Of a stretch of DNA of 64,000 nt, positions 42 to 46,856 are shown piece after piece; the stretch's first letter is position 1, and each line of letters begins with the position of its first letter. Under the pieces are notes generated by a model that saw only the letters and a program-made list of their open reading frames with translations, was not told the origin of the DNA and ran no database searches. The DNA is from a virus. A program made the translations under genes and the position numbers. The stretch is from positions 32,001-96,000 of the IMG/VR virus record IMGVR_UViG_3300045012_000066. One strand, 5' to 3'.

Positions 42-677
42 GTGAGCTATCGCCGCGTCATGAACGGTCGTTCCATCACGATTGTGATGGAGGACGACGG
101 AGTCAGACTGGCTGAACGGTACGCCCTAAAAAGGCAGACGCGAAATACGCAACTGAAGCGTAGGTCTGCGCACGGCCACGACGACACCACGTTTGAAAAA
201 GGACTCGCCACGCACCGCGCAGGCAGTTTTCCTGAACTTGCGGCGGCTCTATTAACAAGCCTCCCATGGCATGCGTACATGGATGACCTGAGTAGTCGTG
301 GTAGCTATCGTCCACCAGACCTCGGTCGAAACATTCAGATCAGAGGCCGCACCGAATTACATTACGGCCTTATCGTTCACAGGCCGAAAGAGCGCGATAA
401 CCCGGAAGACATCTTCGTTCTAGCTTATTGGGACCGTCAGCGTTCGGTCATGTTCGCAGGTTGGATGTTTGGTTGGGAGGCGCAAAACGAAAAGTACTGG
501 AATACCGTGAAGCTTCCTCGCCCCGCTTACCTTATCGACAAAGATTGCCCTAACCTTCGGCCAATCGGGGAACTACTACGCGGCATAGAAGTGTGGTCAG
601 CTAAGAAACCTGTAGTACGGGCATCACACAACCTGCTCGCACGTGGAGCAGTTCAGGAAGCCGAAGGTCAGCCATGA
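42..677 (+). CDS. Hypothetical phage protein (start uncertain)
   Basis: 211-aa ORF; stop overlaps the ATG of the next gene (ATGA at 674-677). Confidence 0.6.
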   Translation: MSYRRVMNGRSITIVMEDDGVRLAERYALKRQTRNTQLKRRSAHGHDDTTFEKGLATHRAGSFPELAAALLTSLPWHAYMDDLSSRGSYRPPDLGRNIQIRGRTELHYGLIVHRPKERDNPEDIFVLAYWDRQRSVMFAGWMFGWEAQNEKYWNTVKLPRPAYLIDKDCPNLRPIGELLRGIEVWSAKKPVVRASHNLLARGAVQEAEGQP

Positions 678-1075
678 AACATAACGACATGCAGGGATCG
701 CTGAACTTCGATTTGAACGAAGGGGAGAGACAGAAGGAGGAGGGAATTGCATTGGCGTCCCTACCTCGCAAGCAGCTTGTGGAGCTAGCGCGGCTCTGCG
801 CTATTCGTGTAGCCCGTAGCTTCGGCGAGGTGACGTACGACGACGTGTTCTACGAAATGATCCGTCAAGGACTGGACCCAATAGCTTTGGGTAATGCAGC
901 AGGCGGCATCTTTCGCGGCAAGGAATTTGTTTTCACTGGTCGCTGGGAGAAGTCGCGGCGAGTCAGTAATCATGCGCGAGTCAACCGCGTATGGCGTTTG
1001 AATAACGACTACATACCACTAAAAAAGAACCCGCTGCGGGCGGAAATCTTGGGAGAGAAGAATGTCGCTTGCTAA
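674..1075 (+). CDS. Hypothetical phage protein
   Basis: 133-aa ORF overlapping both neighbours in operon fashion. Confidence 0.7.
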   Translation: MKHNDMQGSLNFDLNEGERQKEEGIALASLPRKQLVELARLCAIRVARSFGEVTYDDVFYEMIRQGLDPIALGNAAGGIFRGKEFVFTGRWEKSRRVSNHARVNRVWRLNNDYIPLKKNPLRAEILGEKNVAC

Positions 1076-1772
1076 TGAAATTCTGCGCGTAGTCAAGCAT
1101 ATCGACGAGACAGGGGATTGCACCACAGCCGCGCTTTCTAAGCTTCGAAAAACAATCCATTTCTCAGATTCCGAATTGGAGGAATTAGCGTGGAGGGCTT
1201 TTGGTGACGAGGTGAATCGAGCGCTAGTCAGCACCGCAAGAAGAGAAGTTCTCCGGCGAGAAGTAACCATCCCTCAACCGGAGGGTAACGCGCAATCAGG
1301 AGCTAAAGAAGTAAGCGCCAAAGCTGTGCATTCAGCGTCAATCCCGGTCCCTATGCCGGTAAGTTTAAGGGTTGTGAAAGTGGAACCCAAGGTGATGTCT
1401 GTGACGGTGCGGGTTTTGGAGGAGACGATGTACGACATTCGCGGTGATGAGCGAAAGTCAGTCGCCGATTTTGAAACAGACGATGTTGCGTATCTGATCG
1501 AGCGCAACCTAGCTGTCATGCGAGGTCATCAGCAGCACCAAGCGCTTTTCGAGTACATCCTAAAAACGCTTCTGGCGGCGAAGGTAAGGCGAGTGCGCGA
1601 GTTGCCTATAGAGGAACAGGAAAGGATTGGGCGCATGCTGCTTTCGGCAAAAGGGAGGAGATCAGAGCCGCCAGAGCCGCCACCACCGGATGGTGCGACA
1701 GGTGCGACGAAACTTGGACCAACGAAACAGGGTCCAACAGCGGGGCGGCGGGTTGTCGCTCAGGCTGGTTAG
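1062..1772 (+). CDS. Hypothetical phage protein
   Basis: 236-aa ORF with GGAG SD; stop TAG directly precedes the first GGY-NN array. Confidence 0.65.
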   Translation: MSLANEILRVVKHIDETGDCTTAALSKLRKTIHFSDSELEELAWRAFGDEVNRALVSTARREVLRREVTIPQPEGNAQSGAKEVSAKAVHSASIPVPMPVSLRVVKVEPKVMSVTVRVLEETMYDIRGDERKSVADFETDDVAYLIERNLAVMRGHQQHQALFEYILKTLLAAKVRRVRELPIEEQERIGRMLLSAKGRRSEPPEPPPPDGATGATKLGPTKQGPTAGRRVVAQAG

Positions 1773-1773
1773 T

Positions 1774-2004
1774 GGCAAGGCAGGCGAGGCGTGGTCGGGT
1801 CCGGCGCGGCCAAGCGCGGTATGGCATGGCACGGCAAGGCAGGTATGGCAAGGTGTGGCAAGGTGTGGTGCGGTGTGGTGCGGTGCGGCAGGCTGGGCGT
1901 GGTCGGGTAAGGTCTGGCGGGGCGCGGTCGGGCACGGCACGGCAGGTGTGGCTAGGCATGGCAATGCCCGCTGCGGCTGGGTGTGGTCGGGCAAGGCGTG
2001 GCAA
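1774..2004 (+). repeat. GGY-NN pentamer array 1 (candidate guide-RNA array)
   Basis: 43 pentamers (40 start GGC/GGT, then a variable dinucleotide) plus four 4-nt GGCA separators at 1779, 1838, 1887 and 1941. Confidence 0.92.
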
Positions 2005-2010
2005 GTAAGC

Positions 2011-2043
2011 CGGGAGGGACGTTTTTTAAAACCGTCTCTCCCG
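2011..2043 (+). terminator. Stem-loop directly after array 1
   Basis: CGGGAGGGACG (2011-2021) pairs with CGTCTCTCCCG (2033-2043), one G-U pair, A/T-rich loop. Confidence 0.6.
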
Positions 2044-2140
2044 AAAACCTCAACCCCTTAAACGGTGGCATTAAACGCGGCCCTTCTTACGACAAGCTCG
2101 TAGCGGGCGCATATTTAGACGCCACAATGAGGAAAACAAA

Positions 2141-2845
2141 ATGGCTGTTAATAATCCGAAACTGAAGCCGACAGTGGATGTAACGCAAGTAAACACTGCC
2201 GAATTAAAATCCAAAATTCCACCTGCCTCAAAAGTCATCATGATCAAGCCTCCAAGGCTGGAGGTTGTGGAATTTCCCGTGCGGGGCACAGCACCACTGG
2301 TGGTCCATCGCATGTCGGCAAAACTTAAGGCGCAGTTGAAGGCTATCGCCGAAGGTACAGCGTCGAAGGGTGCGCGAAAGGTGCGTGAACCCATGGACTC
2401 AGACGCTCTTTACATGCAAGCCCGCTACATCAGCAAGGAAGGTTGGGACGGGTTTCATGCAGGGGGAATTCGCAACGCGCTGATTTCAGCTTGCCGCTTA
2501 GTGAATTACAAGATGACGCTAGCGAAGCTCAGCCTCTTTGTGATTGCTGATGGATGGGACGCAATTGAGCCGCAGCATCCACTTGTTCGCATTTATGGCG
2601 AGCCTGTTAAGCAGGAGGATGTGGCTCGCGTGGAAACCGGTCAGCCGTATATCGCTGTGCGACCGGCGTACTACAACTGGAGTGCCAAAATTAAGCTCCA
2701 GTATGACGCCGACCAGTTCAGCGTGAACGATGTAGCAAACCTCCTTCACCGTGTCGGTAAACAGGTGGGAATCTGCGAGGGCCGTCCTGACTCAAAGCGC
2801 TCTCCCGGAGTGGGCTGGGGAACGTTCGAGCTTGTAGAGGACTAG
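2141..2845 (+). CDS. RAMP/Cas7-like RNA-binding protein (Vipr-like), flanked by GGY-NN arrays
   Basis: N-terminal strand EFPVRGTAPLVVH, helix GGIRNALISAC and C-terminal Gly-rich loop GKQVGICEGRPDSKRSPGVGWGTFELV follow the RAMP motif order; GAGGA SD. Confidence 0.75.
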   Translation: MAVNNPKLKPTVDVTQVNTAELKSKIPPASKVIMIKPPRLEVVEFPVRGTAPLVVHRMSAKLKAQLKAIAEGTASKGARKVREPMDSDALYMQARYISKEGWDGFHAGGIRNALISACRLVNYKMTLAKLSLFVIADGWDAIEPQHPLVRIYGEPVKQEDVARVETGQPYIAVRPAYYNWSAKIKLQYDADQFSVNDVANLLHRVGKQVGICEGRPDSKRSPGVGWGTFELVED

Positions 2846-2853
2846 GTTTCACT

Positions 2854-2887
2854 GGGCGGCTACTGTCTCAAAGTAGCCGCCCTTCTT
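2854..2887 (+). terminator. Stem-loop between the RAMP-like gene and array 2
   Basis: Perfect 11-bp stem GGGCGGCTACT / AGTAGCCGCCC, 7-nt loop, followed by TTCTT. Confidence 0.65.
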
Positions 2888-2891
2888 AAGA

Positions 2892-3119
2892 GGCGTAGCA
2901 GGCGCGGCATGGCGCGGTTCGGTATGACGCGGTCGGGCGCGGCAAGGCAAGGCAAGGCAGGCGTGGCGTGGCAGGTACGGTACGGCGTGGCTGGGTTTGG
3001 CCGGGTACGGTGCGGCGCGGCTTGGCATGGCAGGGCAAGGCTTGGCAAGGTTCGACGGGGCGGGGCCCGGTCTGGCGCGGCAGGTACGGCAAGGTGAGGG
3101 TAAGGCCACGGCGAGGCGT
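2892..3119 (+). repeat. GGY-NN pentamer array 2 (candidate guide-RNA array)
   Basis: Phased GGY-NN pentamers with AGCA/GGCA separators at 2897, 2956, 2970 and 3079; degenerates just before the next SD. Confidence 0.9.
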
Positions 3120-3131
3120 AAGGAGGAGTTA

Positions 3132-4418
3132 ATGAATCTCGTACAGATACAAAGAATTCCTCCGTGGCACCAATCGACGGAGTTTCTAACTAGCTGCCCG
3201 CAGCTATATGTCGAGTCGGTGATCAAGGGCCATCCGCAACCGGGCGGACTGGACTCCGCACGCGGCAAGGAAGTTCACCAGACTGGCGCTGCTTATGTTG
3301 CTTATTGCGCATTGGAACGCGTTTCACTTGATCTAGCAAAGTTCGATGAGTTAGCAGCCGGTGCCGGTCCACTCGCGGCTCGCATTCTGGCTGGGATGAG
3401 AGATTCTTATGAAGTTGACTTTACACATGTGCTGGCGACAGAACTTACCTTGTCGCTGGATGAACACTTTCTGCCGACGCAGGTGACGGATGCGATTAAG
3501 GGAACGTGCGTAGATACAGGAGAAGAGCCAGTAACCGTCGGCACGCTGGACGCGCTGTATGCATTTCCAGTGGAAGCAACGATGCGGATCGACGATTTAA
3601 AAACGCATCCGAAACCCTTTGAACCCGGCGACAAGCTGCAAGCGAAAACCTATGCCCTGTTGACGTTCATGCACTGGCAGTGGGTTGAGAAGGTTATCTT
3701 CCGCTTGATCTTCGTCCGTTATAGAAAGGTAACTCGCGAAGTTACATTTACCCGCGACCAGATACCTGATCTGATCGCAGCCGTCAAAGCTGGCCGCGAG
3801 CGGCAAATTAAAATTCACGCCGACTACGAAGCTGGCAACAAGATCGAAGCCATTGCCGGGACGCATTGCTGGTATTGCCCCCTGCTGTCGAACCTGAAGT
3901 GCCCCATCGCGCAATACAACGAGAACATGCAACTCACCATGGCGCAGCGGCTCAACTTCAATCTCTGGTACGCGCAGTTCAGCCGCAAAAATAACCAAGT
4001 GATGAGGGCATACGTGCAGGAGAGGGGTCGAGGGATCGTACTCAAGGACTACAACGGCAAGGCGTACGTCTACGACCACGTCGAAGTCGAGTCGGAGGTG
4101 TATCCGGTATTTAAATTCATCGATCAACGCATGGAGCTTCGCGATGGCGTCAATCCGACGCTGCCGATCATCGATCTGTTGATCGACTACGCGGCTGGCA
4201 ATCCGGATGACTCAGAGTGGATGAAAAACGTGGTGGTGTCGTCCACTCCGCTGAGGCGCTACCTCAAAACCAACAAGCGCAGCTTTCTCGACCAAGCGGT
4301 CGAGGATGCCGTGGTGAAAGTCCCTAAATCGCCTATACGTGTGTCGAAACCGCTCGACGCGGTGCCGGAGGCGGAGTTTGACGATGACGAAGAGTTCGAA
4401 GACGAGGAGGAATTGTAA
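3132..4418 (+). CDS. PD-(D/E)xK nuclease, Cas4/AddB-like with probable 4Fe-4S cluster
   Basis: ATG 3132 after AGGAGG SD (ORF-track start 2997 lies inside the array); SCP near N-terminus, RGKEVH, GTLD..IDDLKT, QAKTYALL, C-terminal HCWYCPLLSNLKCP. Confidence 0.8.
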   Translation: MNLVQIQRIPPWHQSTEFLTSCPQLYVESVIKGHPQPGGLDSARGKEVHQTGAAYVAYCALERVSLDLAKFDELAAGAGPLAARILAGMRDSYEVDFTHVLATELTLSLDEHFLPTQVTDAIKGTCVDTGEEPVTVGTLDALYAFPVEATMRIDDLKTHPKPFEPGDKLQAKTYALLTFMHWQWVEKVIFRLIFVRYRKVTREVTFTRDQIPDLIAAVKAGRERQIKIHADYEAGNKIEAIAGTHCWYCPLLSNLKCPIAQYNENMQLTMAQRLNFNLWYAQFSRKNNQVMRAYVQERGRGIVLKDYNGKAYVYDHVEVESEVYPVFKFIDQRMELRDGVNPTLPIIDLLIDYAAGNPDDSEWMKNVVVSSTPLRRYLKTNKRSFLDQAVEDAVVKVPKSPIRVSKPLDAVPEAEFDDDEEFEDEEEL

Positions 4419-4678
4419 TGGATCAGGAAATGCTGATGCGGGCCAGTGAGATCACCGCCGAAACAGAACGTGCCATGAGTATCCACCCTCCCATCAATAG
4501 TGCGCACGAAGCCTATGCAGTCATCAAGGAAGAGTTGGAAGAGTTCTGGGATTTGGTGGTCATCAACCCCAACAAGCTGGATGCAGCGCAACGGGCTGTG
4601 CGGCTGGAGCAGATGCGTAAAGAGCTTACGCAGACGGCAGCGATGTGCCTGCGCACGATGATGGATTTGGCGCTATGA
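4418..4678 (+). CDS. MazG-like nucleotide pyrophosphohydrolase-fold protein
   Basis: HEAYAVIKEELEEFWDLV...KELTQTAAMC helical acidic pattern. Confidence 0.5.
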   Translation: MDQEMLMRASEITAETERAMSIHPPINSAHEAYAVIKEELEEFWDLVVINPNKLDAAQRAVRLEQMRKELTQTAAMCLRTMMDLAL

Positions 4679-4992
4679 CTGTGCTCCCCAGATTGTTCGC
4701 GCTGATGGTCGGGCATGCGCTGGCCGACTTCCCGCTGCAAGGAGACTTCCTCGCCAGAGGGAAGGATCATCGCCATCCGATTTCCGGCGTGCCGTGGTAT
4801 CAGTGCATGTTCGCGCACTGCATGATTCAGGCGGGCATGGTCTACCTCATTACGGGAAGCCTTGTGATCGGACTGGCTGAATTCGTACTGCATTTTGTGA
4901 TCGATTACGCGAAGTGCGACGGGAAGCTGACGTTCAACCAAGATCAGGCGCTGCATGCTACCTGCAAAGTTATCTGGGCGGTGGTCGCATAA
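4675..4992 (+). CDS. DUF3307-like membrane protein
   Basis: LMVGHALADFPLQ, AHCMIQ, HFVIDYAK and DQALH His/Asp motifs in hydrophobic helices. Confidence 0.75.
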   Translation: MTVLPRLFALMVGHALADFPLQGDFLARGKDHRHPISGVPWYQCMFAHCMIQAGMVYLITGSLVIGLAEFVLHFVIDYAKCDGKLTFNQDQALHATCKVIWAVVA

Positions 4993-5005
4993 GGGAGCCA
5001 TAGAT

Positions 5006-5511
5006 ATGAGCAATGAAGCGGATCAGAAGAAACGCACGCCCACGGAAGTCCTAGTGCAGGCCATGGAACTGGCCGAAGAGATGGCTGAATGCGTCGTTAT
5101 TTTTCGGCTCATGAAAGACGGTCAGGGGCACAGCGGAATGGGCTGGGTGACAGAGCTTCCAGAACTGGCGCAGAAGTTCGCCTTCCTTGAAGAGGCCAAG
5201 TTAGCGATGTTTCACAAAAGCTACGGAGAGCGGGATATGCGATGAGACTCAAACTTGAATACGAAGACGACCCGGTATTTGCCACCGTCAAGTACAGAAA
5301 GAGCGACTATCGCGCACTGACATTGAAGATCAACGGCAAACCCTTCAGTGTCTGGGTAACGCTGGACCTTGTGTACCAGTTTCGCCGCGATGACCCGGAC
5401 TACATGCGAGAGATCGACAGGAGCCTCGTTGCAGCCATGGAGCGAATGCTGGAAAAGATTTTTCTGGACGCCGTTGGAGCGATCCCGGATGGAAGCGACT
5501 TAATGATATGA
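5006..5511 (+). other. Two small hypothetical CDSs (5006-5245, 5242-5511)
   Basis: Translationally coupled ORFs with SD-like sites. Confidence 0.6.
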
Positions 5512-7442
5512 AGCTGATCAAACTGCACTTGGAAAATTTCCGTATCCACAAAGACTCCACCCTGTCACTCGGAGAGAGCGCCTTCGTGGTGATTCGCGGC
5601 AGCAACTTTGCCGGGAAGTCCACTATTGGGCAAGGTCTTTCGATGTGCCTCACACCATCGACCACCGGCCTCGATGCGCAGGGCCGGGGCTACGCCTCGA
5701 AGATTAAGCGCGGCGCTACTAGGGCGGTGATCACGGCAGACTTCCAGACGAAGCGTCATCTGATCGAACGCACGGTCACGCTGAACGCCAACGCTGCGGG
5801 CCGCACACAGAAAACAGTTTGCCTGAGTGATCCAAGCTGGAAGCCGACCAAGTTTGACGACGAGATCGACCGGCAGAAGGCCGCGCTGACGGTGGTGCTG
5901 AACACCGACGCGTTCCTGCGCATGGACGAGAAAGAGCAGAAGAACCTGCTGGCTGGGCTGGCGCTTCCCAGTCACTACGACTTCGACCGGCAGATCGTCG
6001 CGGACGTGGAGGCGGTCCTCGGCGAGTGGTCTGTCAACTTCACAGGCGAACCATTCGCAGCGATCAATCTGGCATACAAGAAGCTCTTCGACGAGCGCCA
6101 GATCGTCAACCGGCAGGTGAAGGAATTCGTGATCCCGGAAGCGTTGGCGGCTCCTGAAGACGTGGACTCCAACTCGCTGCAAAGCAGGCTGGCAGAGTTA
6201 CGGGAGCAGCGTCGGGAGAAGCAGCGCGAGCGCGATCAGGCGGTAGCGGAGGCCAGCAAAGAAGAGACCGCCCGCCAGCGGGCCAAGGATAAAGTGCAGC
6301 AGGCTCTCGACGGTGAGTATCGCCGGGGGAACTCGATCCGGGACAAGCTGGTCAAAGAAGGTCAGTTGGTTTATCTGCGCAAGATCGCGGAAAGCAAGCC
6401 GGAACTGGACAGACTGATGAAGGAGCGCGAGGCGTCCTTAAGGCTGCGCAACCATTACGACATCCAGCTTAAAGCTCTGGAGGCGGTGCCATGGAACGCG
6501 AAGGAATGCCCTACGTGCGAGCAGCCGGTGGACGTGGAGAATTTAAAAAGGCTGAGCGAGAAGCTAAAGAAGGACATCCGGGAATCCAACGGAACGCTGG
6601 GCGTCGTCGAGCAGAAAATCAAAGCTCTGGGCGACGTGGATGATGCAATCGCTCTCATCGAAAGGCACGAGGCGGCGCTGAAGGAACTGGGCACGTTCGA
6701 TGAACAGGCGGAAGAGAGGAAGAAGCAGATCGAAGAGGCGGAACGCGACATTCCGGGTCCGACGCTGTTCGACTTTGCCCCCTTCAATATCAGCATCTCT
6801 GAAATCGAACTGGAGATCGAGCGGCTGTCCGGCCTGCTTCGCCCGGTGATCGTCGCGGAGGAGCGGCGCAAGGAGATCGCGATCAAGCAGGGACAGCTAG
6901 CGGTCCTGAAGCAGAAGGCAGCGACGCTGGACCGGCTGGTCAAGTACTTCGACAAGGGCGGCATCAAAGCCAAGCTCATCGGCCAGTATATTGGCGGTTT
7001 CGAGTCGAAGCTGAATGAGGTGATGGGCGCGTGGGGCTACTCCTGTGCGCTCTCGATTGAGCCGTACTCGTTCGACGTAACCAACGCCCGTCAGGATGTG
7101 ATTCCGGTGCGCGAGCTTTCCGGGGCCGAAGAGGTCATGTTCTCGCTGGCCTTCCAGTGCGCGGTGAGCCAGACGGCCAACATCGGCATGGTGGTGATCG
7201 ACGAGGTCGCCATGTTCCTGCCGGAAATCCGCCGCGTGCTGAATGCGCGACTCTACGACATGATCCAGCGCGGCTTTCTGGAGCAGGTCATTCTGCTGGT
7301 CGCGGACACCTCGGAGCAGGCATCCAGCCTGCCGGGAGCGGCCTTCTACATGGTGGAAAACGGCGAGGTGCGTGCTCTGCCAGCAAACGGTGTACGAAAG
7401 GAGACACAAAGTGAGCGACGAAACGACCAACGTATTGCCTGA
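5508..7442 (+). CDS. Rad50/SbcC-like SMC ATPase
   Basis: Walker A GSNFAGKS, long coiled coil with zinc hook CPTC, signature LSGAE, Walker B VVIDE. Confidence 0.9.
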   Translation: MKLIKLHLENFRIHKDSTLSLGESAFVVIRGSNFAGKSTIGQGLSMCLTPSTTGLDAQGRGYASKIKRGATRAVITADFQTKRHLIERTVTLNANAAGRTQKTVCLSDPSWKPTKFDDEIDRQKAALTVVLNTDAFLRMDEKEQKNLLAGLALPSHYDFDRQIVADVEAVLGEWSVNFTGEPFAAINLAYKKLFDERQIVNRQVKEFVIPEALAAPEDVDSNSLQSRLAELREQRREKQRERDQAVAEASKEETARQRAKDKVQQALDGEYRRGNSIRDKLVKEGQLVYLRKIAESKPELDRLMKEREASLRLRNHYDIQLKALEAVPWNAKECPTCEQPVDVENLKRLSEKLKKDIRESNGTLGVVEQKIKALGDVDDAIALIERHEAALKELGTFDEQAEERKKQIEEAERDIPGPTLFDFAPFNISISEIELEIERLSGLLRPVIVAEERRKEIAIKQGQLAVLKQKAATLDRLVKYFDKGGIKAKLIGQYIGGFESKLNEVMGAWGYSCALSIEPYSFDVTNARQDVIPVRELSGAEEVMFSLAFQCAVSQTANIGMVVIDEVAMFLPEIRRVLNARLYDMIQRGFLEQVILLVADTSEQASSLPGAAFYMVENGEVRALPANGVRKETQSERRNDQRIA

Positions 7443-46058: not shown

Positions 46059-46856
46059 TTATTTCTTAGTCTTTTTCTTAGCTCTTGTGACCCTTGCGAC
46101 TGGCTCCGGTTCCGGCTCTGGCTCAGGTTCTGGTTCAGGCTCTTCTTCTTCCGGCTCTTCAGGTTCCTCTGGCTCTGGCTCTTCTGGTTCCGGTTCTGGT
46201 TCCGGTTCTGGTTCTGGCTCAGCCGGTGGTTCCGGTTCAGGCTCTGGCTCAGGTTCAGGCTCCGGCTCTGGCTCAGGTTCAGGTTCTGGTTCAGGCTCAG
46301 GCTCAGGTTCAGGCTCCGGCTCTGGCTCAGGTTCAGGTTCTGGTTCAGGCTCCGGCTCAGGTTCAGGCGTTGGCGGTTCCGGTATAGGAAGCCCAGCCAG
46401 CGTCAGCAACTGGACGTATCCCTGTTGCACCATGGCGTCTAACTCTTCCTGTGTATGCTGGCCAACCCGCACGCGTTCGTCGCCGATGTCAACCGCTTCC
46501 CCCGGAGCCGCATCCCCGGATTGCATACTGGGCAAGGAAACCCAGTAGAACGTTTGTTCGTTGATGCTGATCCGCCAGATGGCGCAGTACCCAATCTCAC
46601 CGTCCGGGACATGGCCAAGCTGCATCATCCCCCATTCGTCATAGCCAGCGATATCCGCCAGCCAGCCGCGAAAGCTGGCACGCTGCATCTCCAGTTGTTC
46701 ACCGGGAGCCACACCTAGTGCTACGAGAATTGCATTGGAGTTCGGCCTGCCTTCCTCCATGCGCATGGTGGCGTCTTGAATCTTGAGCATGTCTTCGCGA
46801 CGCATTGCTTCTGCGAACTCTTCCAGTGTTGCGACCTGCTGCATATAAACCTCCAC
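46059..46856 (-). CDS. Protein with long (Pro-Glu)n tract and basic tail
   Basis: About 90 aa of EP repeats encoded by mixed 6-nt GARCCN units; GGAGG SD; ends RAKKKTKK. Confidence 0.7.

What the first reader, a model, noticed from the sequence alone, without database searches (positions are those of the whole stretch)
1774..3119. RAMP/Cas7-like gene sandwiched between two GGY-NN pentamer arrays: candidate phage RNA-guided system
Seen: two ~230-nt arrays on the coding strand in which a fixed GGC/GGT trinucleotide alternates with a variable dinucleotide (40 of 43 pentamers in array 1 start GGY), flanking one 234-aa gene. Established: the protein motif order (G.APL..H strand, GGIRNAL helix, terminal Gly-rich loop G..VG..GRP..G.GWG.F) is that of RAMP/Cas7 backbone proteins, which polymerise along crRNA with fixed nucleotide periodicity. 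Inference: each protomer binds one GGY and presents the NN for pairing, so the NN string is a non-contiguous guide. There is no CRISPR repeat-spacer array, cas1/2 or other Cascade subunit. The layout matches my recollection of the recently reported VIPR systems; I cannot confirm that assignment here.
Basis: partly seen in the sequence, partly recalled or inferred. Interest (0 to 1): 0.95.

Follow-up and report, generated by a model that had tools for sequence, protein, structure and literature searches.

The report
Phage VIPR locus with staggered guide arrays
This is a real phage-borne VIPR system: a stand-alone Cas7-like protein flanked by two arrays of GGY-NN pentamers that most likely encode gapped guide RNAs. 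It belongs to a family first described in 2026 preprints, so it is a new member, not a new kind.

Summary
The window carries two + strand arrays (1774-2004 and about 2892-3119). G-G-pyrimidine is fixed in them and the next two bases are near-random. They flank one 234-aa gene (2141-2845). They are the only such arrays in the 122-kb phage genome.

- The protein folds as a CRISPR RAMP; 49 of the 50 best structural matches are Csm3/Cmr4/Cas7-type chains.
- Its only significant sequence match among solved structures is the SUSP1 Vipr protein (profile E 1.9e-6; hhalign 95.5%).
- Four of the five published SUSP1 contact residues for the two guanines and the pyrimidine that I could align have conserved counterparts.
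- Of 117 homologue loci, 101 carry the same arrays on the coding strand.

The arrays are of the published "staggered" kind. A 4-nt GGCA unit shifts the register every 10-12 pentamers, giving about 7 full-length candidate guides and no structured tails.

Two things differ from relatives. The roughly 150-aa accessory gene found in 82% of related loci is missing. A rare 236-aa gene that fills that slot in two to three other phages lies upstream instead.

No target was established. There is no self-targeting, and the one 21/22 match, in another phage's head gene, is not statistically secure.

Verdict: a new member of a known kind, of moderate interest.

The parts
1062..1772 (+). 236-aa gene directly upstream of array 1; candidate alternative VIPR accessory gene
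   Evidence: It is homologous over its full length to the genes that sit between vipr and the array in L009 (E 4e-22) and L007 (E 1e-11). It has no Pfam family. hhalign finds no relation to the clade's usual accessory or to SUSP1 vap1. The AlphaFold2 model was unusable at pLDDT 46.8. There is a faint Cas11e hit, E 0.006, which I treat only as a lead.
1774..2004 (+). vrRNA array 1: 47 units, 44 starting with GGY. GGCA register slips divide it into candidate guides at 1783-1842 (12 units), 1842-1891 (10), 1891-1945 (11) and 1945-2004 (12, with two degenerate units).
   Evidence: GGCA punctuation is a feature of the whole clade.
2012..2042 (+). Stable hairpin after array 1, with no U-tract; a possible 3' end or processing structure
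   Evidence: The fold of 2000-2060 gives -22.5 kcal/mol, z -3.4. The consensus terminator scan did not call it. Hairpins are not enriched after arrays across the clade.
2141..2845 (+). vipr gene: 234-aa stand-alone RAMP protein
   Evidence: It matches phrog_4652 and has no Pfam family. The AlphaFold2 model has pLDDT 77.5. RAMP chains fill the fold-search lists. It matches SUSP1 Vipr, PDB 36pp. It has 2,778 homologues and 2,715 cluster representatives.
2854..2882 (+). GC-rich 11-bp hairpin followed by UUCUU, between the vipr stop codon and array 2; a weak terminator or processing structure
   Evidence: The fold of 2843-2900 gives -27.0 kcal/mol, z -4.2.
2892..3119 (+). vrRNA array 2: 44 units, 42 starting with GGY. 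Candidate guides lie at 2901-2960 (12 units), 2960-2974 (3 units, a stub), 2974-3033 (12), 3034-3083 (10) and 3083-3119 (7 irregular units). The array runs into the AAGGAGG ribosome-binding site of the next gene.
3132..4418 (+). 428-aa exonuclease-like gene immediately after array 2; a neighbour, not shown to belong to the system
   Evidence: It matches phrog_69 exonuclease at E 1e-12. It has no Pfam, PADLOC or PDB sequence hit. A homologue follows the VIPR locus in only one other locus, L030. The next large gene downstream (5508-7442) encodes an SbcC-like ATPase, so this looks like the phage recombination module.

Best explanation
This is a phage-encoded VIPR (Viral Interference Programmable Repeat) system. 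I infer the following mechanism from the characterised SUSP1 system. The two arrays are transcribed on the + strand with the surrounding genes. Copies of the 234-aa Vipr protein polymerise along the RNA, one protomer per pentamer. They hold each G-G-pyrimidine through the RRM sheet, thumb and glycine-rich loop, and they expose the two variable bases. The string of NN dinucleotides then pairs with double-stranded DNA that reads NN-x-NN-x, skipping one target base per unit. The bound filament silences transcription of a competing mobile element such as another phage, a prophage or a satellite. In this clade the guides are packed head to tail. A 4-nt GGCA unit breaks the 5-nt register every 10-12 units here (mostly 8-13 across the clade), which I infer ends one filament and starts the next. 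That gives about four guides per array without structured 3' tails. Shown here: the arrays, the RAMP fold, homology to SUSP1 Vipr, conservation of GGY-contact residues, clade-wide protein-array linkage, clade-wide GGCA punctuation, and the viral context. Inferred only: transcription, processing, RNP formation, DNA rather than RNA targeting, the 1-nt skip rule in this clade, and the biological target.
For: Arrays: (100% pyrimidine at position 3; near-maximal entropy at positions 4 and 5). They are the only two such arrays in the 122-kb genome. Fold: in the wide VIA-align search 49 of the top 50 chains are CRISPR RAMPs, with Z up to 9.2; every listed Foldseek match is a chain of a CRISPR effector complex, mostly type III. 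Homology: profile A2 against all PDB sequences gives one significant hit, 36pp 'SUSP1 Vipr protein', E 1.9e-6. hhalign against the SUSP1-type Vipr gives 95.5% probability, E 1.4e-8. Contact residues: SUSP1 H17, R138, D177 and R179 (paper 10.64898/2026.04.26.720927, section 5) align with window H56, R174, E213 and R215, which are invariant or nearly so in the clade. Linkage: 101 of 117 homologue loci have strict arrays near the gene; 4,657 units lie near it on the coding strand, against 67 elsewhere and 62 on the other strand. Punctuation: of 480 four-nt slips, 89% are GGCAGGY, and the segments between slips are mostly 39-64 nt. In 240 well-framed junctions the unit is GGCA in 98-99%. This matches the 'staggered vrRNA arrays' with 1-nt overlap in fig. 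S18 of 10.64898/2026.04.26.720920. Context: the record is a complete 122-kb virus with terminase and capsid genes and no Cas1. There is no self-targeting, as reported for published VIPRs.
Against: No expression or binding data exist for this locus, and the scan found no sigma-70 consensus promoter. The published text states sRNA-seq confirmation only for ribozyme-interspersed arrays and single-vrRNA systems, not for staggered arrays. No convincing target was found. Near-full-length 1-nt-skip patterns (terminal GGCAG unit omitted) for two guides gave nothing or one chance-level hit. Eight-unit seeds for four guides gave one 21/22 match. A pooled test of 377 clade guides against about 1 Mb of held loci showed no excess for the 1-nt skip over 0, 2 or 3. 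SUSP1 W178, which stacks on the second G, aligns with a glycine here; the clade instead has an 8-residue insertion ending in GWG. The accessory gene typical of the clade is absent from the whole phage genome.
Confidence: 0.88

Rival explanations
1. The locus is a Vipr-type ribonucleoprotein that reads RNA rather than double-stranded DNA. It would act like a type III or Cmr backbone on transcripts, possibly with a different skip rule from SUSP1.
For: The closest solved folds are Csm3, Cmr4 and gRAMP, which form RNA-targeting backbones. This clade is only distantly related to SUSP1 Vipr, with sequence similarity confined mostly to the C-terminal third. The glycine-rich loop carries an insertion. 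The 1-nt-skip rule showed no enrichment in my small pooled test.
Against: All seven published VIPR types are described as using GGY/NN or related arrays with DNA-interacting accessory genes. GGY-contact residues are conserved. The one candidate target fits the 1-nt skip with the skipped bases at wobble positions. Similarity to Csm3 is at fold level only, at 7-14% identity.
Confidence: 0.07
2. The locus is a decaying or disarmed VIPR. It would have lost its accessory gene and carry degenerate guides, so it no longer silences anything.
For: The roughly 150-aa accessory found in 133 of 162 related loci is absent from the entire genome. Several units are degenerate (AGCGC, TGCCC, GCTGC, GACGC, GACGG), there is a 3-unit stub, and the array tail at 3083-3119 is irregular. 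No secure target was found.
Against: The vipr ORF is intact with all clade-invariant residues. GGY is kept in 86 of 91 units. In SUSP1, vipr plus vrRNA suffices for silencing and vap1 only enhances it. The paper itself notes frequent internal degeneracy in vrRNAs. A different gene seen in the accessory slot of other phages lies upstream.
Confidence: 0.04
3. The arrays are not guide RNAs. They would instead be DNA-level or coding features, such as G-quadruplex-prone repeats, iterons, or Arg/Gly-rich small ORFs.
For: Short ORFs run through both arrays because GGYNN rarely makes a stop codon. The G-rich repeats could fold in DNA.
Against: A 5-nt period cannot hold a reading frame. The arrays are strictly strand-specific relative to vipr in about a hundred unrelated contigs. 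The variable positions are exactly those shown to be guide bases in SUSP1.
Confidence: 0.01

Closest known systems
VIPR type II systems (Escherichia phage SUSP1 and the Pseudomonas fulva prophage), bioRxiv 10.64898/2026.04.26.720920 and 10.64898/2026.04.26.720927
   Same: Both have a stand-alone RAMP protein with an RRM core, thumb and glycine-rich loop. Both have GGY/NN pentamer arrays on the coding strand on both sides of the gene. Both are carried by phages and have no cas genes and no self-targeting. Counterparts of SUSP1 H17, R138, D177 and R179 are conserved.
   Different: Sequence similarity is detectable only by profiles, mostly in the C-terminal 60 residues. The protein is 234 aa against 193-202 aa, with an 8-residue insertion in the glycine-rich loop. 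In a SUSP1-type locus (L231) the guides are discrete blocks of 6-14 units about 60-125 nt apart; the paper describes structured tails after each guide. Here the guides abut and are separated only by GGCA. No homologue of vap1 is present.
'Staggered vrRNA arrays' (fig. S18 of 10.64898/2026.04.26.720920)
   Same: Successive guides overlap by one nucleotide, so the end of one marks the start of the next. This is exactly the GGCA|GGY geometry seen here and in about 100 related loci.
   Different: The text held does not say which VIPR type has this architecture. It states sRNA-seq confirmation only for the other two architectures. The GGCA consensus and the spacing of mostly 8-13 units were measured here and are not taken from the paper.
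Cyanophage Cy-LDV1 (BK059895.1) gene g34 and neighbours
   Same: This is the nearest named phage homologue, at 49% identity. Its locus (L001) has arrays of 31 and 28 units after the gene.
   Different: Its order is vipr, array, a 193-aa gene of the clade's usual accessory family, then a second array. All are annotated as hypothetical. The window has no such accessory.
Class 1 CRISPR backbone proteins (Cas7, Csm3, Cmr4)
   Same: They share the fold and the way the protein binds RNA periodically, flipping bases with a thumb.
   Different: There is no CRISPR repeat-spacer array, no Cas1, and no detected Cas5, Cas6, Cas8 or Cas10 partner. The period is 5 nt with three bases sequestered, against 6 nt with one base flipped. 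Identity is 7-14%.

Membership tests
VIPR | A Vipr protein with the RAMP fold: RRM core, thumb hairpin and glycine-rich loop | tested here: met
   The AlphaFold2 model has pLDDT 77.5. It shows a beta-hairpin at 155-177 and a Gly-rich loop at 210-227. In the wide VIA-align search 49 of 50 top chains are CRISPR RAMPs, Z up to 9.2, covering residues 36-234. Every listed Foldseek match is a chain of a CRISPR effector complex, mostly type III Csm/Cmr.
VIPR | Sequence homology to an experimentally characterised Vipr | tested here: met
   The only significant PDB sequence hit is 36pp, 'SUSP1 Vipr protein'. E-values are 0.089 for the single sequence, 0.005 for profile A1 and 1.9e-6 for profile A2. hhalign gives 95.5% probability, E 1.4e-8.
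VIPR | Residues that hold G1, G2 and Y3 of the repeat (SUSP1 H17, R138, D177, W178, R179) | tested here: met
   H56, R174, E213 and R215 align with SUSP1 H17, R138, D177 and R179 and are conserved in the clade. W178 aligns with G214. A tryptophan is supplied in the inserted GWG motif (W226), but its role is unknown. Four of five residues are therefore met.
VIPR | Tandem YNNGG (GGY/NN) repeats of at least four units next to vipr on its strand | tested here: met
   There are 47 and 44 units, with 44 and 42 starting GGY, only on the + strand.
VIPR | Protein and arrays travel together across homologues | tested here: met
   101 of 117 loci have arrays. Units number 4,657 near the gene on the coding strand, against 67 far away and 62 on the other strand.
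VIPR | Individual vrRNAs of about 9-16 repeats | tested here: inconclusive
   GGCA slips cut the arrays into pieces of 10-12 units, but the boundaries are inferred from sequence and were not mapped.
VIPR | An invariant, structured 3' tail after each guide (described for type II) | tested here: not met
   There are no spacers between guides. Only one hairpin follows array 1. Hairpins are not enriched after arrays in the clade. No Rfam family, including hammerhead, was found. The paper describes tail-less staggered arrays as a VIPR variant, so this feature is not required for membership.
VIPR | An adjacent vap accessory gene | tested here: inconclusive
   The clade's usual accessory of about 150 aa (phrog_15946; present in 133 of 162 loci) is absent from the genome. 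The 236-aa gene at 1062-1772 fills that slot in L007 and L009, but its function is unknown. The downstream exonuclease is linked to a VIPR locus in only one other locus.
VIPR | Viral or proviral context without cas genes or a CRISPR array | tested here: met
   The source is a 122-kb virus record rated 100% complete. It has terminase and capsid genes, no Cas1 and no CRISPR-length repeats.
VIPR | Guides match natural targets under the 1-nt skip rule at 80% NN identity or more, and do not target their own genome | tested here: inconclusive
   There is no self-target; the best matches, 62-75%, equal those of shuffled guides. One 21/22 match lies in a VG15-family head gene of IMG/VR UViG_3300009986_000002, with skipped bases at wobble positions. 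My estimate of chance is about 0.05-0.15. The other guides found nothing above background.
VIPR | vrRNAs are expressed and co-purify with Vipr, and the RNP represses matching DNA | not testable with these tools
   This needs sRNA-seq, pull-down and reporter assays.
VIPR type assignment (I-VII) | Position in the published Vipr phylogeny, together with the vap family and the array architecture | not testable with these tools
   The type tables and trees are not in the text held. It is not type II, judged by sequence distance, array layout and the lack of vap1.
CRISPR-Cas class 1 | A CRISPR repeat-spacer array, the cas1-cas2 adaptation genes and a multi-subunit effector | tested here: not met
   There is no Cas1 and no repeats of 25-40 nt with spacers near the gene. 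None of the four neighbouring proteins scanned (1062-1772, vipr, 3132-4418, 5508-7442) gave a significant PADLOC cas match; the only cas-related row is a faint Cas11e hit at E 0.006.

The most novel reading that the evidence does not exclude
In this large, little-studied VIPR clade the guides need no tail, ribozyme or dedicated nuclease. A single 4-nt GGCA unit would break the Vipr filament register and so measure out and delimit each guide, with maturation then done by trimming of unprotected RNA. The 236-aa upstream protein would be a new accessory factor that replaces the clade's usual one, perhaps a helical partner like the CRISPR small subunit. The phage would then deploy VIPR guides alongside a second guide system, since it also carries TIGR-like arrays.
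Probability: 0.25. Interest if true: 0.6.

Novelty: new member of a known kind. Interest (0 to 1): 0.4.

Why it matters
VIPR is a months-old discovery. So far it has been characterised experimentally mainly in one type (SUSP1 and P. fulva).

This locus belongs to a much larger clade. I found 2,778 homologues, or 2,715 cluster representatives at 50% identity. The clade spans many bacterial phyla, a cyanophage and actinophages.

Its guides are packed in staggered arrays, an architecture for which the published text reports no sRNA-seq confirmation. The clade-wide numbers gathered here give concrete, testable rules for how such arrays are cut into guides. These are the GGCA unit in 98-99% of junctions and the spacing of mostly 8-13 units.

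The locus is compact, about 2.1 kb from 1062 to 3119. It lacks the usual accessory gene. That makes it a convenient minimal construct for asking what the accessory genes do. The same phage also carries TIGR-like arrays, so it may be a useful case of one virus holding two unrelated programmable guide systems.

Tried and rejected
- **Target search.** Near-full-length exact 1-nt-skip patterns (terminal GGCAG unit omitted) for guides 1891-1945 and 1842-1891 were scanned against IMG/VR. They gave no hit and one hit. The hit (L118) is 18/20, lies in an AT-rich glycosyltransferase gene, is not wobble-aligned, and is at the number expected by chance.
- **Seed scans.** Eight-unit seeds for four more guides gave 8, 7, 36 and 12 seed hits. 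Only one extended well, L173 at 21/22. No other guide matches that 49.5-kb contig, and the window phage has no homologue of the targeted gene.
- **Pooled skip-rule test.** I tested 377 clade guides against all held loci with skips of 0 to 3. The 1-nt skip showed no excess, but the database was too small to be informative.
- **Accessory structure.** The model of the 236-aa candidate had pLDDT 46.8, too poor for a fold search. Only two close homologues exist in the large protein database.
- **Accessory homology.** hhalign found no relation between the 236-aa protein, the clade's usual accessory and SUSP1 vap1.
- **Structured tail.** Hairpins are not enriched after arrays in the clade, and there is no Rfam hit.
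- **Transcription signals.** The scan found no sigma-70 consensus promoter, and its three terminator-like calls, all on the - strand, are at the number expected by chance.
- **VIPR type.** The tables are not in the supplement text that is held.
- **False array hits.** A loose array detector flagged 46102-46385 and a stretch upstream of the window. Both are 6-nt coding repeats and were discarded.
Full report
**What is there**

Window 1774-2004 and about 2892-3119 hold two + strand arrays in which GG plus a pyrimidine recurs every 5 nt.
- Array 1 has 47 units: 43 pentamers, 40 of which begin with GGY, and four 4-nt GGCA units.
- Array 2 has 44 units, 42 of which begin with GGY.
- Position 3 is C or T without exception. 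Positions 4 and 5 carry 1.8-2.0 bits of entropy.
- Runs of four or more in-phase GGYNN units occur nowhere else in the window and never on the - strand. Shuffles give 0.21 runs per 64 kb.

The window is bases 32001-96000 of a 122,463-bp IMG/VR virus record rated 100% complete. It has terminase and capsid-like genes. In the whole genome these are the only two such arrays; the other loose hits were 6-nt Gly-Ser type coding repeats.

Between the arrays lies one 234-aa gene (2141-2845). All genes from 42 to 7442 are on the same strand.

**The protein**

It has no Pfam family and matches only phrog_4652, of unknown function.

An AlphaFold2 model built on 25 homologues has pLDDT 77.5. It shows a beta-alpha-beta core, a long beta-hairpin at 155-177 that fits a RAMP thumb, and a C-terminal glycine-rich loop.
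- A search of 48,161 representative solved chains that does not rely on Foldseek put CRISPR RAMPs (Csm3, Cmr4/6, Cas7, gRAMP, Cas6) in 49 of the first 50 places. Z reached 9.2 over residues 36-234.
- Every listed Foldseek match is a chain of a CRISPR effector complex, mostly type III Csm/Cmr.

At the sequence level, the only significant match among all PDB chains is 36pp, named 'SUSP1 Vipr protein'.
- E was 0.089 for the single sequence, 0.005 for a 25-sequence profile and 1.9e-6 for a 61-sequence profile.
- hhalign of the profile against the SUSP1-type protein from Shigella phage vB_SflM_004 gave 95.5% probability and E 1.4e-8.

**Contact residues**

The cryo-EM paper (10.64898/2026.04.26.720927, read) names the SUSP1 residues involved. 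H17 and D177 bind the first G. R138 and W178 bind the second G. R179 is among the residues that bind the pyrimidine.

In the alignments these fall on window H56, R174, E213 and R215. All are invariant or nearly invariant in the clade.

W178 aligns with a glycine. This clade has an 8-residue insertion in the loop that ends in a conserved GWG, which may supply the stacking tryptophan; that is inference.

**Linkage of protein and arrays**

The family is large. I found 2,778 homologues in the 90% clusters and 2,715 representatives at 50% identity.

I fetched 80 viral, 35 genomic and one GenBank phage locus. I scored them with a strict detector that required at least 70% of spacings to be multiples of 5.
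- Counting the window itself, 101 of 117 loci have arrays within 1.5 kb upstream or 2 kb downstream of the gene on its own strand.
- There were 4,657 units there, against 67 elsewhere on that strand and 62 on the other strand.

The hosts named for the genomic contigs span Bacteroidota, Acidobacteria, Proteobacteria, Planctomycetes, Verrucomicrobia, candidate phyla and others. A cyanophage and several Gordonia phages also carry homologues.

**How the arrays are divided**

The 5-nt register slips by one base at GGCA|GGY.
- In the window this happens at 1779/1783, 1838/1842, 1887/1891, 1941/1945, 2956/2960, 2970/2974 and 3079/3083.
- Across the clade there are 480 such slips, and 89% read GGCAGGY. 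The stretches between them are mostly 39-64 nt, or 8-13 units.
- In 240 well-framed junctions the short unit is GGCA in 98-99% of cases, while the flanking NN remain variable.

If the last unit is read as GGCAG, it shares one G with the next guide. This is the 'staggered vrRNA array' with 1-nt overlaps of fig. S18 in the discovery paper.

On this reading the window encodes guides of 12, 10, 11 and 12 units in array 1. Array 2 encodes 12, 3, 12 and 10 units, followed by an irregular 7-unit end.

There are no spacers or tails between guides.
- One hairpin follows array 1 (2012-2042) and one separates vipr from array 2 (2854-2882).
- Hairpins are not enriched after arrays in the clade.
- No Rfam family, including hammerhead, is present.

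A SUSP1-type locus looks different. It has five separate blocks of 6-14 units, about 60-125 nt apart.

**Accessory genes**

A gene of about 150 aa (phrog_15946, no Pfam) usually sits next to vipr, most often just downstream. It occurs in 91 of the 117 loci analysed first and in 133 of 162 homologue loci overall.

The window phage has no detectable copy anywhere in its genome.

Instead, the 236-aa gene that ends at the first base of array 1 (1062-1772) is homologous over its full length to the genes occupying the accessory slot in L009 and L007.
- It is unrelated, as far as hhalign can see, to phrog_15946 or to SUSP1 vap1.
- It has only two close relatives in the large database.
- It gave an unusable model.
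- A faint Cas11e match (E 0.006) is only a lead.

The 428-aa exonuclease-like gene after array 2 (phrog_69) recurs next to a VIPR locus only in L030. An SbcC-like ATPase gene lies further downstream. I read this as the phage recombination module, not a shown part of the system.

**Targets**

Under the published rule the guide reads NN-x-NN-x in DNA.

No guide matches the phage's own genome better than shuffled guides do; the best matches are 62-75%. Published systems behave the same way.

Scans of IMG/VR gave one notable hit.
- Guide 2974-3033 matches 21 of 22 informative bases at L173 2356-2391.
- The site lies inside a VG15-family (PF25310) head gene next to an SPP1-type portal gene, in a 49.5-kb viral contig that has no vipr.
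- All skipped bases fall on codon third positions of that gene.
- Given the number of seed hits examined and the GC-rich coding background, I put the chance probability at roughly 0.05-0.15.
- No second guide hits that contig.

It is therefore a lead, not a finding. The other scans found nothing above background.

**Comparison with what is known, and verdict**

VIPR systems were described in 2026 preprints: 10.64898/2026.04.26.720920, 10.64898/2026.04.26.720927 and 10.64898/2026.10.15.759431. A genomic language model study, 10.64898/2026.10.21.760802, also recovered them.

The locus meets the defining features that can be tested from sequence:
- the RAMP fold;
- homology to a characterised Vipr;
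- conserved GGY-contact residues;
- GGY/NN arrays on the coding strand;
- family-wide linkage of protein and arrays;
- viral context without cas genes.

It is not type II. Its type could not be assigned because the classification tables are not in the held text.

Expression, RNP formation, DNA targeting and the skip rule are inferred by homology. I therefore file it as a new member of a known kind. It has three features of local interest: a tail-less staggered array with GGCA punctuation, loss of the usual accessory gene, and a rare alternative neighbour.

Earlier notes of this scan on the same stretch had also proposed GGCA punctuation. I measured it independently, before reading them.

Noticed in passing
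window 37179-37641 (+): An array with a 36-nt period. Two CCA-ending motifs alternate (GAGTGAACCA and GAGAGTACCA/GCGAGTGCCA), separated by variable stretches of about 8-9 nt, for about 13 units. The layout is TIGR-like. The same phage would then carry two unrelated tandem-repeat guide systems.
   Followed up: partly
L173 2356-2391 (IMG/VR UViG_3300009986_000002): [quoted passage not shown] This is a candidate natural target, but I estimate the chance probability at about 0.05-0.15.
   Followed up: yes
window 1062-1772 (+): The N-terminus (residues 7-59) of the 236-aa candidate accessory protein gives a faint PADLOC hit to Cas11e, the type I-E small subunit (E 0.006, 14 bits). The cryo-EM paper compares Vipr's helical bundle with the small subunit, so a small-subunit-like accessory is worth testing. 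The hit itself is not significant.
   Followed up: partly
related loci L002-L116 and L119-L164: A conserved gene of about 150 aa (phrog_15946, no Pfam) accompanies this Vipr clade in 133 of 162 loci. It sits either directly after vipr with the array about 450-600 nt downstream, or after a first array. hhalign finds no relation to SUSP1 vap1.
   Followed up: partly
window 3132-4418 and 5508-7442 (+): An exonuclease-like gene (phrog_69) begins 13 nt after array 2, and its ribosome-binding site merges with the last repeat units. An SbcC/LmuB-like ATPase gene lies further downstream. This is probably a recombination module that shares a transcript with the arrays.
   Followed up: partly
window 46100-46385 (+): A long 6-nt Gly-Ser type coding repeat (GGY TCN). 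It mimics a GGY array in loose detectors.
   Followed up: yes
phages collection: A 48-residue C-terminal piece of SUSP1 Vipr finds identical or near-identical genes in 118 Felixounavirus-type phages of Escherichia, Shigella, Salmonella and Citrobacter. It also finds distant copies in Gordonia, Mycobacterium and Pseudomonas phages. All the rows shown are annotated as hypothetical or are unannotated.
   Followed up: no
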